Of a DNA stretch of 64,000 nt, positions 11,511 through 55,460 are shown piece by piece. The DNA comes from Eledone cirrhosa. Taxonomy: Eukaryota. The notes below the pieces were generated by a model. The model was given only the letters and a program-made list of their open reading frames with translations, ran no database searches and had not been told where the DNA came from. The DNA lies in contig OZ024756.1 of assembly GCA_964016885.1 (NCBI GenBank), positions 32,798,001-32,862,000 on the forward strand, given 5' to 3'. The number at the start of each line of letters is the position of its first letter. Position 1 is the first letter of the stretch. The position numbers and the translations under genes are program-made.

Positions 11511-11588
11511 AGGAATGATATAGAACAAATATATATATATATATATATATAATATAAGATCAAAAGATGGTTAAAGGAGTTCAATATA

Positions 11589-11655
11589 TTTTATTATGCG
11601 CATTTCAAAAACAAACATCATCAAGCAATAATATTTGTGTTTTCATCAGATAAAA
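11589..11655 (-). ncRNA. Type I hammerhead ribozyme motif (H1, inverted arm)
   Basis: Reverse complement of 11785-11851. Confidence 0.8.
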
Positions 11656-11784
11656 CAGGAGAACATGATATGAAGGCTAAAAAACACTTGTTGATAGTGC
11701 AGTTTTAAATCAACATATCTAACTGCAACATATCTAACTGCACTATCAACAAGTGCTTTTTAGCCTTCATATCATGTTCTCCTG

Positions 11785-11851
11785 TTTTATCTGATGAAAA
11801 CACAAATATTATTGCTTGATGATGTTTGTTTTTGAAATGCGCATAATAAAA
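11785..11851 (+). ncRNA. Type I hammerhead ribozyme motif (H1)
   Basis: ttttat-CTGATGA-aaac acaaatattatt gctt gatgatgtttgt tttt-GAAA-tgcgca-TA-ataaaa. Confidence 0.8.
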
Positions 11852-12113
11852 TATATTGAACTCCTTTAACCATCTTTTGATCTTATATTGTATTATGCAT
11901 ACTCCAGTCCCACAAACTGTAGAGTGCTTCTTATCCGATATCTGCATTGCTTTATTGTACTACAATAAAACTCACCTCCTACATTATATATATATATATA
12001 TATATATATATATAATAGTAATAATAATACATTTGAAGACTAAAATCCCGTTAAGGGTGAAAGCAGCGATTCTTTGCTTAAACTGTATCTGTTATTTTAA
12101 TATATATATATAT

Positions 12114-12556
12114 AAGTATGTACACGTGCATACTTATATGTATACAGACGTACAGTAGTATGTATATATATATACATACATGCACACATATATATATGTA
12201 CGTATGGTTTCACCGAACATTTATTATAATGCTCGGTGTGCTTGTAAACAAACATCTCGTATTAAGCCGTAGTGTCCGGCAACCATCGTTGAACAAACGA
12301 GCAACGATGGTTGCTGGACACTACGGCTTAATACGGGATGTTTGTTTACAAGCACACCAAGCATTTTAATAAATGTTCGGTGAATCCATACGTACATATA
12401 TATATATATATATATGTGTGCATGTATGTATATATATATATATACATACTACTGTACGTCTGTATACATATATGTATGTACGTGTACATACTTATATTTA
12501 AGTATCAGCCGTACTAAGAGTGGGAAATGAAATTTCGTTTCATTTTTTTCGTTCAA
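12114..12556. mobile_element. (TA)n-inserted fold-back element; no clear hammerhead core
   Basis: ~180 bp inverted arms around a short loop at 12291-12301; single-arm relatives at ~26895-27022 and ~32015-32222. Confidence 0.75.
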
Positions 12557-13082
12557 TATATATATATATATATATTTATTAAAATAACAGATTAAAGTTT
12601 AATTTAAAGTATTATTATTACTATATATATATATATATATAAAAACAAGGTAAGTGTGGTAAGAAACCTGGTGGACCATAACGCATATATATATATATAT
12701 ATATATATATATATATATATATATATATATATATATATATATACATATATATTGAAAAGCACTGGTTGAATTGTGGTTGTTATGAATGCTGTTGATGCTG
12801 TTGAAATTGCTGATGTTGCTATTGTCGTTATTCCTTTGGTATTTGTAATTCTTCTTGTTGTTGGTGTTACGGTTGATGCTGCTGTAGTTGTTATTCTAGT
12901 GACTGTTGTGGTTGTTGTTGCTCTTTTATTACCGAAGAAAATGGTTTGCCACGAAAGCAATTGGATCTAAAATATGGAAAAGGGGAAGAACAAAATAAAA
13001 ACCACATGCAGTCGCCTATAAAAGGTTTCGCAATGGAGAGATTTTGAAAACTGTGTGCTTGAAACAATAACACTGATTTGAA

Positions 13083-51293: not shown

Positions 51294-51355
51294 TTCATTC
51301 TGACGACTGAAGGCAGATATAAATATCTGCCTTCAAAAAACCACTGGTAAATGAA
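51294..51355 (+). ncRNA. Hammerhead motif (H2) with G12A core change
   Basis: ttcatt-CTGACGA-c tgaaggcagatat aa atatctgccttca a-AAAAC-cactg-GTA-aatgaa. Confidence 0.65.
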
Positions 51356-51459
51356 ATAATTATCTTCTGCTGTTTATTACATAACTAAATATGTGTATAT
51401 ATATATATATATATATATATATATATATATATATATATATATATATATACAGATGTAAT

Positions 51460-52187
51460 TGTTCGTAAATACATCATCATCGACTGTAGACTATTGTATG
51501 CACCTTGTACTGGAGAAACACCAGGACTCTGGCTTTACTGTAGCACCGGCTCAGAGTAGGAGAGTTAAGGCGCTGAATTTGCCGACGACATAGTTTTGGA
51601 AGCCGCTAGAATTGGTTGAGGACTTCCTGTAATTGGGAGCAAAGATTGGGAATATGGAAGATGATGTGGGTGAGAAGAAGACAAAGCCTGGGCGGCGTGC
51701 CACAGCTTGAGATCGGTGTGGAAGTCGGACTTTCGGAAAGCCCTGAAAATCCGCCTCTTCATTGCTGTAGTGGAGTCTGTTCTGCTGTACGGGTCTGAGA
51801 CGTGGACACTGACCAAGAAACTCACTCAGATGGTGGATGGCTGCTACACGAGAATGCTGAGGATGGCTCTGAACATTAATCAGTATACACTGAGGATGAA
51901 AATCTCAGAGCTGTACGGGAACCTCCCAAAAGTCAGCTCAAAAGTGACACAGAGGAGACTGAGGTTAGCTGGACATGCTCACCGACATCCAGATTGACTT
52001 TGCACTCAGTGCTCCTGTGGAACCCCTACATGGACACACTGGAAGAGGAAGACCAAGGTTAACGTATGTTGATGCCCTAAGGACAGACACTGGTCTGTTG
52101 GAGACGCGGGACTTGGCAGCGATAATGAGGGACAGAGACCGCTGGAGAGAACTTGTCCATGGATCTCGGACATTTTACCCGCCCTAG
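51460..52187 (+). pseudogene. RTE-clade LINE reverse transcriptase C-terminal fragment
   Basis: FADD at 51578-51589; KIRLFIAVVESVLLYGSETWTLT, RRLRLAGH, RGRP, DRDRWR; frameshifts and an internal deletion; followed by (atag)n. Confidence 0.9.
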
Positions 52188-52379
52188 ATAGATAGATGTA
52201 TAAAGACACACATACATCCTAGCAATGCAACACCATTTTTAATTTTACGTGATGTTTAAATTTCTTTAGTACATATGAGTGCCCGGTGTATTTTCTGACA
52301 ACTAGTAATATGTGTTCATCAGAGGCGATCGACAGCAATCGGTGGGGGCTAGTAATTAAAGTGTTCTCAACGCATGGAT

Positions 52380-52760
52380 TTGCATGCTGGCATGGTTAGG
52401 AGGCGTAGAAGAGCTATATCTTCTCGATGAACGCAGTGTTTGTTTATTTGTTTTGACATTGAAGGAGAGATACTTCACACAACCTTAAGGAAAAAAGGGT
52501 TTCAAATAATGTGCTTGATTTCAGTGCAGGTTTTTGTGTGAGATGTCTGTCAAGTTTGCAATTGGTTCACGCTTAAGTGCAGCATAACCGCGGGAATGAA
52601 AATGTGTTCAACGAGCATATATAATATTGGTTGTTTCCTGAGGCGAGCATATCGTAGGTCATTGATGCTTGAGAGGAAGAGAGTGTAAGTTCAAATGCTT
52701 GTGTGGTAAGGTAAGTCAGGATTGAAAGGGGACCTCAGCAAAAGCTGTACCAGTAGAGAC
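52380..52760 (-). pseudogene. Highly decayed CR1/jockey-group RT fragment
   Basis: Minus strand AEVPFQS...LFLSSINDL...SFNVKT resembles GVPQGS..LFLLYINDL..FN..K. Confidence 0.4.
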
Positions 52761-55099
52761 AGCGTTGCCACCAGAGACGATAGTGCCCCTTCATGATATA
52801 GAAAATGGACGGCCTCCGTAGGTAGGCAGTATTGGCAGTAGACTAGTGTGACAGGGCAACGAAATCAGTAATGGTGATTAATACAAAAAAAAAAAAAAAG
52901 AAGAGAGAGTGAATGTGAAATTGTCAACTTCTCTCTTCCGCTCTTTCTCATACACATACAGACACACATACACACATACACACACACTTACTCGCACACA
53001 TACACACTCACTCTATATCTCTATTCACAAGATTATTTGTCATGCTGAATCGCTAGAACACGCAACCGGATAATTAAAAGTTTGGAGTTCGTTCCTTCGT
53101 AAAAGCTACTAGGCACTTCATTTCTGTATCAGTAACCTACCCGATTTACTAATGCATCATTTACAGGCAATAGGCTGTGGCTGCAGTTAATGTCTTCATT
53201 TGAGATTCCTAGCCAAAGAATTTCAATTCAAAACAAACACTTCATTATTTCAAATTTAGAACATATACATATTATGTGCTTATTATGTGTAGGCACGTGA
53301 ACATATATATGTCTATACAAGCATATACATGTAAATATATATGTGTATATGGATATATATGTTCATACGTAAATACTAACATACCAACATGCATACCTAA
53401 CTATTAATCTACCAACATAAATATATATATATATATATACATATATATATATGTATATATATATATATATATATATATATATATATATATATATATATAT
53501 ATATATATATATATATATATGCCAACATACATATACATATACAAACATAAAATATGCTAGTGTCTATATATGTTAGCATAACATAACTGGTTCTTTGTTA
53601 CGACTATACAACTTTCTTCCTTTAAAATGACATCTGGAATGACTTAGCCGCACTACGCTCCTTTAAACACATATAGAAATGGTTCGCTTAAATAAAGACC
53701 ATCCTTTGGCATCAATTTCACATTTGATTTATATCCTCCTACATAACAGTACTTCCTCCTATACACACCACCAGGGCCACCGTATATAGCTTATATATAT
53801 ATATATATTTATATATGTTCAACCATAAAAAAGTCATTTTTTTTTCAAGGAACTAAAAGCTGTAAAATGAAAGCAAAAATAAAGAAAAAGCGAAAAGAGA
53901 AATATATATATATATATATATATATATATATATATATATATATATATATATATATATATATATATATATATATACGAATGTATACTTGTGTACATGGATA
54001 CATGTATTTCCATGTATATATGTGGATATCTCTCTATATATATTTGTGTATGTATACATGTAGATATATATGTGTATGTGTGTATATAAATACACACACA
54101 CACACACACACACACACACACACACACACACACATATATATATATATATATATATATATATATATATATATATATATACGTATATGTATGTGTATATACA
54201 TGTATACACATGTATATACACATACACGCACACGCGTATATCAATGCTTCCTAAATTTATATTTCAGCTATTCCAGTGGTATGTCTATAAAGAGCGGTAT
54301 GTCTAATAGTGTTAGGCGTAGTAATGTTCTTAAAGTGGCCATGTTATCTTTGTATATAACTAACGTCACACTAAATCTAGAAGAAATATATAATATACTA
54401 CCAGAAATACACCACTTTGTCTGGCTTTTCTGCTTGTGTATTATTATATGTATGCTACATATACATACATATCTAAACATGCGTATATATATATGTTTTG
54501 AAATCTCTGGTAACTCCTGTTTTTCTTGTTCTTATCCACAGCATAACCCAGAATTACTTGTCTCCTCTCGAATTTGTTAGCATGATATTTTCACCGCAAC
54601 CGCATTGTAGTGGGTTTCACCTCCCACAATTTTCATATTCCACCATGCTTCAAACAAATTTCAATACTCACTCTCATATATATATATGTATATATATATA
54701 TATATATATATATATATATATATATAGGTAACTAGTCAGGACCCCAACGGCTGAGCTCCGGCCGTTTCGACAGCTAGACCTGTTTCCTTACCAGACTTTC
54801 TTTTTTCATATATATATATTAGCAAGTGTAGCATCAAGAAAAATATAGTCTTCGTCGAGAGGAGAACGTATAATTTATTGGCTGTAACACAAGTTTCTGT
54901 GTTTTTAATAATAGTCTACATATGCTGGCTACAATTATATTGTTCAGACATATGCAATACACACACACACACACACACACACACACACACACACACACAC
55001 ACACACACATACACACACACATATATATATATATATATATATATATATATATATATATATATATATATATATATATATATATATATGTGTATATATATT

Positions 55100-55460
55100 A
55101 GAAAGTGAGGTTTTTTACAAAGTGAAAAATACACGAGTGAAAGTATAAAGAAAAAAAATTATAATCGAAAATGCAACTGGAGTCTTATATTTAAAAGAAT
55201 ATATATATCTATTTGGTTCCTTTACCGGTTTCGCAGTTCTTCTGCTTTTCACAAGTAGAGTTGAGATGGAGGGTCTGTGGTTTTTCGCACATCTAATGTG
55301 AGAAAATGCACAGATGTGAGAAAAACCACAGACCCTCTATCTCAACTCTACTTGTGAAAAGCAGAAGAACTGCGAAACCGGTAAAGGAACCAAATAAATA
55401 TATATATTCTTTTAAAAATAAGACTCCAGTTGCATTTTCGATTTTAACTTTTCTTCTTTA
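55100..55460. mobile_element. (TA)n-inserted fold-back element, family H7
   Basis: ~145 bp inverted arms 55146-55294 / 55311-55458; diverged single arm at 23555-23665. Confidence 0.8.
55347..55388 (+). ncRNA. Hammerhead-like motif with variant NTGAAAA core (H7)
   Basis: ctt-GTGAAAA-gcag aagaa ctgc-GAAAC-cg-GTA-aag; mirrored at 55218-55259. Confidence 0.45.

What the first reader, a model, noticed from the sequence alone, without database searches (positions are those of the whole stretch)
11551..55460. Recurring fold-back architecture: inverted duplicate arm + forward arm + tail
Seen: at least 15 islands (11551, 12114, 15859, 18576, 19675, 20191, 27258, 28512, 32920, 33252, 40357, 43139, 48332, 51103, 55100) consist of an arm, its inverted copy and usually a one-sided tail, bounded by TA. 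Copies of one family fold at different points. Inference: simple twin priming gives inversion without duplication, so inverted duplication implies a tandem or circular RNA template, or snap-back second-strand synthesis. Inverted pLTRs are known in PLEs, but here they are the dominant insertion form.
Basis: partly seen in the sequence, partly recalled or inferred. Interest (0 to 1): 0.75.

Follow-up and report, generated by a model that had tools for sequence, protein, structure and literature searches.

The report
Penelope retroelement fold-back insertions
These short DNA palindromes in TA repeats are truncated copies of Penelope-type jumping genes, a layout already known for this group, and their almost invariable pairing of one long end with one short end suggests that both cut DNA strands likely start copying the same RNA from two fixed points.

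Summary
All 15 islands fold back, six more were found, and none appeared in 30 shuffles. They are 5'-truncated Penelope-like elements (PLEs) in (TA)n. Five families lead to reverse-transcriptase plus GIY-YIG genes with Hydra-type or Neptune-type motifs. The inverted copy, one-sided tail and TA target are published PLE features, and this scan noted the same layout in another genome (e1-9521337). The counts are what this window adds. Each family has two fixed outer ends 33-157 nt apart. 51 of 53 outward end pairs combine one tailed and one tail-less end. Either arm can be the longer (16 versus 20 of 49 copies picked by their tail alone). Arms share alleles at 343 of 359 segregating sites. Each end type also occurs alone. 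This best fits both target strands being primed at two fixed sites of one RNA, the upstream stretch copied twice and the cDNAs end-joined, which matches published in vitro Poseidon data. Snap-back from the tailed strand cannot be the only route. A circular or tandem template is not needed for the inversion, although one 593-nt hammerhead family does carry multimers.

The parts
11547..11985 (+). Family A (Hydra-type PLE) fold-back: tail-less inverted arm 11547-11704, junction with short templated repeat, tailed arm 11736-11893, tail to 11985
   Evidence: family linked to RT + GIY-YIG ORF in L031/L033
11783..11854 (+). Type I hammerhead motif in family A arm (mirror copy 11649-11595 on minus); predicted, not assayed
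   Evidence: motif scan; fold not more stable than shuffles
12107..12556 (+). Family B fold-back, arms 12107-12291 and 12302-12500, tail to about 12556; PLE by architecture only
   Evidence: relatives in 13 fetched loci; no credible ORF link
15859..16110 (-). Family C fold-back, tail on the left, arms 15923-15992 and 16041-16110 (older copy)
   Evidence: family linked to Hydra-type ORF pieces in L187/L188
16186..17347 (-). Family D: about 1.6 units of a 593-nt hammerhead repeat plus inverted arm 17172-17347; retrozyme-like, no ORF seen
18575..19043 (+). Fold-back whose arms 18575-18737 and 18742-18914 are mostly TA-rich, then a tail; no relative among fetched loci
19646..19848 (-). Fold-back, arms 19696-19764 and 19785-19848, short tail on the left
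20100..20338 (-). Fold-back, arms 20191-20240 and 20289-20338, tail on the left (left limit approximate)
21004..21324 (-). Second family A copy: tail plus a 57-nt tailed arm, joined to a tail-less arm of about 180 nt (tail-less arm longer)
26059..26830 (+). Family G (Neptune-type PLE) 3' piece: GIY-YIG C-terminus 26059-26343, hammerhead motif about 26628-26672, ends at the tail-less site in (TA)n
   Evidence: Pfam PF01541 E 9.7e-05; 92% identical to the G ORF
27255..27456 (+). Family G fold-back, arms 27255-27294 and 27361-27400 with a low-complexity centre, 54-nt tail
28510..28785 (+). Family H (Neptune-type PLE) fold-back, arms 28510-28624 and 28634-28748, templated repeat at the apex, 33-nt tail
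32909..33225 (+). Fold-back, arms 32909-32968 and 33039-33098, tail (right limit approximate)
33251..33478 (+). Fold-back, arms 33251-33319 and 33340-33408, templated repeat at the apex, tail
35668..35985 (-). Older relative of the 33251 family, arms 35716-35781 and 35922-35985
40352..40567 (+). Fold-back, arms 40352-40415 and 40451-40515, tail
43130..43390 (+). Fold-back, arms 43130-43214 and 43218-43304, tail
44297..45878 (+).
48330..48790 (+). Family M fold-back, arms 48330-48436 and 48542-48649, tail (right limit approximate)
   Evidence: family follows Hydra-type ORF pieces in L032 and L034
51100..51388 (-). Family C fold-back, tail on the left, arms 51164-51262 and 51290-51388
55098..55462 (-). 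Fold-back, tail on the left, arms 55144-55294 and 55312-55462
8587..9196 (.).

Best explanation
The islands are 5'-truncated Penelope-like retroelements in (TA)n, each with two fixed outer ends, and they likely arise when both cut target strands prime reverse transcription at two fixed sites of one RNA and the two cDNAs are then likely end-joined. Shown: family links to RT + GIY-YIG ORFs, the two fixed ends, one end of each type per insertion, variable inner breakpoints of either polarity, microhomology or inserted bases at junctions, and shared alleles between arms. Inferred: (1) the endonuclease cuts both strands in (TA)n; (2) one strand primes at the tail end (P1), the other at a TA-like site 33-157 nt upstream (P2); (3) both reverse transcriptases copy the same upstream RNA, the downstream one displacing the other cDNA (PLE RT lacking RNase H is recalled, not tested); (4) each stops at its own point, or both run to the RNA's 5' end, which gives the symmetric folds; (5) the cDNA 3' ends anneal through 2-7 nt or short templated inserts and are filled in. 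The tail is the RNA between the two start sites.
For: ORF links: A (L031, L033), G and H (L171, L184, L181), C (L187, L188), M (L032, L034). Outer end of the inverted arm at the family's fixed site in 81 of 85 resolved copies (A 83-91, C 60-71, G 54, H 33 nt from the tail end; read). First 100 exact anchor matches on contig C1 per family: tailed/tail-less ends 41/59 (H) and 55/45 (G), yet outward pairs are mixed in 29 of 29 and 22 of 24, with 2 tail/tail and 0 tail-less/tail-less. All 10 fold-backs among 24 family D elements are mixed, and D also has 5 tail-less-only and 8 tailed-only solo copies, so P2 is a real 3' end. Polarity in tail-selected G and H copies: tail-less arm longer 16, tailed arm longer 20, within 20 nt 13, of 49; L185 has a tail-less arm of over 3 kb and a 190-nt tailed arm. 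Symmetric folds exceed permutation (G 5 vs 1.1, P 0.003; H 8 vs 3.7, P 0.008). In L114 both arms continue through the same captured tRNA-Met. Arms agree at 343 of 359 segregating sites against 50-70% expected. Microhomology of 2 nt or more in 19 of 29 insert-free asymmetric junctions against 15-18% by chance; 36 of 86 junctions carry inserts. In vitro, Poseidon from Anolis cleaves and extends both strands and starts RT at two sites that bound the tail; a dimer is predicted (PMC11167929).
Against: No intermediate was observed; strand displacement and the joining step are inferred. Half of all junctions (45 of 90) are symmetric and fit snap-back equally well, and in family A the small offsets favour the tail-less arm. 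L032 joins a family A arm head-to-head to a different Hydra-type family (55% protein identity), and 2 of 53 pairs are tail/tail; both need two RNAs or later rearrangement. Allele sharing could come from one master source or from conversion between arms (31 private variants are in both arms). The in vitro paper saw no strand difference in start-site use and no homology between start site and target, whereas the P2 sites here are TA-like. 94 of the 200 listed ends had no listed partner. A and C samples were biased to long tailed arms by the query length. Ten or so window families have no ORF link.
Confidence: 0.62

Rival explanations
1. Snap-back: one cDNA folds on itself, copies back, and the endonuclease or repair resolves the new strand at P2 (first reader; 'EN-mediated resolution' in PMC8557442).
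For: 45 of 90 folds are symmetric within 20 nt, often at short palindromes or with small loops. Arms share alleles. L114 is symmetric through a captured tRNA.
Against: Snap-back from the tailed cDNA predicts a tailed arm at least as long as the other; 21 of 90 show the reverse, by up to 3 kb. Snap-back from the tail-less cDNA has no template for the tail. Tail-less solo copies exist. Several apices have no loop. It can act only on top of double priming.
Confidence: 0.18
2. Two RNAs: a dimeric RNP holds two RNA molecules, one subunit starting at P1 and the other at P2, and the two cDNAs are joined.
For: Either polarity occurs. One cross-family join (L032) and two tail/tail pairs. PLE hammerheads are proposed to work as dimers (PMC4209133).
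Against: Free choice of site would give about half same-type pairs; 2 of 53 were seen. Excess of symmetric folds. The shared tRNA chimera in L114. Allele concordance of 343 of 359.
Confidence: 0.1
3. Self-priming on, or a template switch to, an antisense transcript whose end lies at P2 (PMC3846280, discussion).
For: Published reading of head-to-head PLE palindromes. It puts no limit on which arm is longer.
Against: It needs an antisense end fixed at a TA-like site in every family. It does not explain tail-less solo copies with variable inner ends, nor an antisense copy of a tRNA in L114. In vitro both ends are sense-RNA start sites.
Confidence: 0.06
4. The inverted duplication comes from a tandem or circular RNA template.
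For: Family D arms run through up to 3.8 units of a 593-nt hammerhead repeat. Circular PLE RNA has been proposed for head-to-tail tandems (PMC4209133).
Against: A circle or tandem gives direct repeats, not inverted ones. Families A, C, G and H fold back without any repeated unit. Inner ends do not cluster at the predicted hammerhead cut (d 134 in A, 224 in G, 237 in D).
Confidence: 0.03
5. MITEs or DNA transposons, or assembly and read chimeras.
For: Inverted repeats with fixed outer ends in TA context.
Against: The tail lies outside the inverted repeat, the interior length varies, and arms run into RT genes. Arms differ by 143 private one-arm variants. The same outer ends recur in 81 of 85 loci. 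Short-read contigs show 48 other arm-to-arm joints of family A and TA-joined tail-less ends.
Confidence: 0.01

Closest known systems
EN+ Penelope-like elements, Hydra clade (PMC8557442)
   Same: Families A, C and M: RT plus C-terminal GIY-YIG; in A the DKT motif, CxCX5C linker and canonical hammerhead; (TA)n target; inverted 5'-truncated copy; one-sided tail.
   Different: Tails are 64-91 nt against the 30-40 bp described. The N-terminal RWK motif was not seen (ORF incomplete). No tree was built.
EN+ Penelope-like elements, Neptune clade (PMC8557442)
   Same: Families G and H: DKS/DKG, YxDD, CX4CxxC linker before a C-terminal GIY-YIG, microsatellite target, tails of 54 and 33 nt.
   Different: No hammerhead found in H by my descriptor. 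Neptune versus Nematis was not separated by phylogeny.
Poseidon from Anolis carolinensis in vitro (PMC11167929)
   Same: Both strands are cut and extended, two RT start sites bound the tail, and hammerhead cleavage is not needed.
   Different: There the start sites are adjacent, not homologous to the target and show no strand bias, and the paper gives no model for inverted pLTRs. Here P2 is TA-like and the two ends are coupled one of each.
L1 twin priming (PMC2912911)
   Same: Both target ends prime on one RNA; the cDNAs are joined by short complementarity; an inversion results.
   Different: In L1 the second site is internal and not fixed by the element, and the arms are described as consecutive stretches. 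Here it is fixed near the 3' end and the upstream stretch is duplicated. One copy (L036) looks like the L1 type.
Non-LTR retrozymes (bioRxiv 10.64898/2026.07.22.740005; PMC4209133)
   Same: Family D: ORF-less tandem units with a type I hammerhead, dispersed multimers, PLE-type ends.
   Different: The unit is 593 nt. Circles and cleavage were not tested, and the partner PLE was not found.

Membership tests
EN+ Penelope-like element | RT and GIY-YIG endonuclease in one ORF upstream of the terminal repeat | tested here: met
   A: 698-aa stretch in L031; G and H ORFs; GIY-YIG Pfam hit in the window; C and M by tblastn. Pfam gave no hit for the A ORF. Not shown for the other window families.
EN+ Penelope-like element | 5' truncation with an adjacent inverted copy and a one-sided tail | tested here: met
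   103 of 120 loci with an inverted arm; 51 of 53 pairs mixed
EN+ Penelope-like element | Hammerhead motif in the terminal repeat | tested here: inconclusive
   Motif in A, D, G and the 44297 family (9 hits against 0-1 per shuffle); C only by eye; none in H; folds not better than shuffles; no hammerhead among the 150 of 314 Rfam rows shown; cleavage not tested
EN+ Penelope-like element | Partial tandem (pLTR-ORF-pLTR) full-length copy | tested here: inconclusive
   No full-length or partial-tandem ORF copy among the 30 extended loci; tandems seen only in family D
EN+ Penelope-like element | Insertion bias for microsatellites, TSD not discernible | tested here: met
   (TA)n follows the tail in nearly all 60 G and H loci printed; no TSD can be read inside (TA)n
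Hydra clade | DKT motif and CxCX5C linker, with CxxC and CxH near the EN end | tested here: met
   Family A ORF; definition from PMC8557442
Hydra clade | N-terminal RWK motif; placement in an RT tree | not tested
   ORF start missing; no reference proteins on hand
Neptune clade | CX2-5CxxC linker upstream of a C-terminal GIY-YIG | tested here: met
   G and H; shared with Nematis, so clade not fixed
MITE / TIR DNA transposon | Inverted repeats at both termini, fixed length, no RT link | tested here: not met
   Tail outside the repeat, variable interior, arms run into RT ORFs
Non-LTR retrozyme (family D) | ORF-less tandem monomers with a type I hammerhead | tested here: met
   593-nt period, up to 4 matches in a row; motif
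Non-LTR retrozyme (family D) | Self-cleavage and circular RNA | not testable with these tools
   needs RNA work

The most novel reading that the evidence does not exclude
PLEs integrate by programmed twin priming: a protein dimer starts reverse transcription at two fixed sites on one RNA, one per target strand, and copies the upstream RNA twice. This single rule produces the inverted pLTR, the one-sided tail and both kinds of solo end, and this genome holds on the order of 300,000 footprints of it.
Probability: 0.55. Interest if true: 0.62.

Novelty: new member of a known kind. Interest (0 to 1): 0.42.

Why it matters
How PLEs make their inverted repeats and tails is named as unsolved in PMC8557442 and left open in PMC11167929. 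The counts here turn it into testable predictions for the existing in vitro system: mixed ends, either arm longer, one RNA per insertion. They also cut down the self-priming explanations. In practice, at roughly one TA-flanked fold-back per 9 kb (42 in 390 kb), such palindromes could be mislabelled as MITEs or DNA transposons in automated annotation; this was not tested.

Tried and rejected
Rfam scan of the window: only microsatellite-driven miRNA hits in the 150 of 314 rows shown. DNA searches with the G and H arms returned nothing because the words are too common; exact motifs worked. Pfam did not recognise the family A ORF. Proximity links from families B, D, E, F, I, J, K, L, N, O, P and Q to PLE ORFs were rejected as neighbouring insertions; only M was kept. 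No RNA holder listed. Reads could not confirm single window junctions: no listed piece crossed the 11547 apex, and the 48330 locus had no depth even on its unique flank; runs X1-X3 may be the assembly's own sample. Hammerhead cut sites as fold points: rejected. A master hairpin copied whole: unlikely, since the same apex recurs in different A subfamilies. Rows dropped: 30 of 120 loci were left out of the junction table (forward-only, cut by the locus edge, duplicates, complex, or reference too short), and 4 more rows (L114, L183-L185) from the microhomology count; a few C-family breakpoints are imprecise because the reference is short. One of 40 requested random stretches did not exist. Eight literature searches showed no paper that states the two-site twin-priming model for PLEs; subscription papers and all supplements were not seen, and the supplement figures of PMC11167929 may bear on it.
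Full report
Observation. After masking microsatellites, self-BLAST found 20 local inverted clusters in the window and none in any of 30 shuffles. All 15 named islands and six more have arm pairs of 31-334 nt at 81-100% identity. In 39 evenly spaced 10-kb stretches of the 3.0-Gb genome there are 60 fold-backs, 42 with TA at an arm end. That is about 7 TA-flanked ones per 64 kb, so the window (18) is richer but not special. The repeat content recalls an octopod genome (recalled, untested).

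Identity. A GIY-YIG remnant at 26059-26343 runs into the repeat of the 27255 island. Genome copies were taken for five families: A (11547), C (51100), G (27255), H (28510) and D (16186). Thirty loci were extended. A leads to an RT + GIY-YIG ORF with DKT and CxCX5C, the Hydra-clade marks (definition from passages of PMC8557442). G and H lead to ORFs with DKS/DKG and a CX4CxxC linker, Neptune-like. C and M adjoin Hydra-type ORF pieces in two loci each. Exact 33-34-mers occur 13,642 (G), 3,246 (H) and 1,056 (D) times. Type I hammerhead motifs lie in the arms of A, D, G and the 44297 family. The remaining window families are assigned by architecture alone.

Anatomy of 120 loci (30 each of A, C, G, H). 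An inverted arm was seen in 103, none in 15, and 2 were unresolved. Both outer ends are 3' ends of the element facing outward. One is the tail end (P1). The other (P2) is at the family's fixed TA-like site in 81 of 85 resolved copies. The inner breakpoints vary. Of 90 junctions the tail-less arm is longer by more than 20 nt in 21, the tailed arm in 24, and 45 are within 20 nt. A and C were picked by a long query, which favours long tailed arms; the tail-selected G and H give 16, 20 and 13 of 49. Arms reach 2.7 kb on both sides in L033, and over 3 kb against 190 nt in L185. Of 86 scored junctions 36 have inserts, several of them local repeats; 11 are blunt, 8 share one base and 31 share two or more.

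Coupling of the ends. One degenerate motif per family lists both end types. Among the first 100 matches each, end types are about even, but outward pairs within 8 kb are mixed in 29 of 29 (H) and 22 of 24 (G); there is no tail-less/tail-less pair, and 94 ends have no listed partner. In family D all 10 fold-backs among 24 elements are mixed, and solo copies end at P1 (8) or P2 (5), one being complex. The two arms of a locus agree at 343 of 359 segregating sites; private changes are mostly in one arm (143 against 31), so the arms diverged after insertion. Symmetric folds exceed permutation in all four families. In L114 both arms continue through the same captured tRNA-Met and its trailer to the tRNA's start. 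Against a strict one-RNA rule stand L032, a head-to-head join of two different families, and two tail/tail pairs.

Mechanism. The best fit is that both target strands prime on one RNA, at P1 and P2, that the stretch upstream of P2 is copied twice, and that the cDNA ends are joined. It explains mixed ends, either polarity, symmetric folds, shared alleles and both solo types. It matches the in vitro Poseidon results: both strands cut and extended, two start sites bounding the tail, hammerhead cleavage not needed (PMC11167929; main text and part of the methods read). Strand displacement and the joining step are inferred. Snap-back may finish some symmetric folds but cannot make a longer tail-less arm plus a tail. 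A tandem or circular RNA explains only the multimeric arms of family D.

Artefact tests. Fixed ends across dozens of loci and diverged arms exclude chimeras at family level. Short-read contigs show 48 other arm-to-arm joints of family A and TA-joined P2 ends of families A and M. Single window junctions could not be confirmed with these runs.

Comparison with what is known. PMC8557442 (passages) describes the adjacent inverted 5'-truncated copy, the tail at one end and the (TA)n target, and calls their formation unresolved. PMC3846280 (passages and discussion) describes palindromic junctions and proposes self-priming on an antisense template. PMC4209133 (passages) describes pLTR hammerheads and possible circles. 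PMC2912911 (passages) describes L1 twin priming. The 2026 retrozyme preprint was seen as abstract, outline and two passages, and PMC13282606 as passages. The layout is therefore known and the families are new members. The quantified one-of-each end rule and the model drawn from it were not found in eight searches of the open library.

Verdict. A real and ordinary PLE footprint (identity about 0.95), with a useful mechanistic lead (about 0.6). Interest 0.42.

Noticed in passing
L114:1534-2040 region (G000:C1 near 22.19 Mb): A family H fold-back whose two arms both run on through a captured tRNA-Met (CAT) with about 60 nt of trailer, folding at the tRNA's 5' end.
   Followed up: partly
L032:5500-9872: Family A arm joined head-to-head, mid-RT, to an inverted copy of a different Hydra-type family (about 55% protein identity).
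   Followed up: partly
window 16186-17347; L190-L219: 593-nt ORF-less hammerhead repeat, over 1,000 exact motif matches, dispersed multimers of up to about four units; retrozyme-like.
   Followed up: partly
window 13748-14874: G/T-rich 36-nt minisatellite of 31.5 copies with stop-free frames on both strands; no sign of a gene was looked for.
   Followed up: no
window 235-432, 6551-6676, 27783-28104, 36685-36887, 39327-39764, 40650-40775, 60647-60822: Copies of a SINE-like family, some in tandem (SINE identity recalled, not tested).
   Followed up: no
window 9434-9735, 47838-48244, 50106-50359, 51520-52217: 3' pieces of a LINE-like element; 47838-48244 shows an inversion relative to the longer copy, as in ordinary twin priming.
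   Followed up: no
window 60903-61343: Tandem array with a period near 52 nt.
   Followed up: no
L036: Family A copy whose inverted arm does not start at the fixed site and does not overlap the tailed arm: an L1-type inversion.
   Followed up: partly
L037:2-1408: Long array of C2H2 zinc-finger repeats beside a family A insertion.
   Followed up: no
all fetched loci: 78 of the 190 sequences then held matched PLE proteins, and PLE copies of different families pile up in the same (TA)n tracts.
   Followed up: partly
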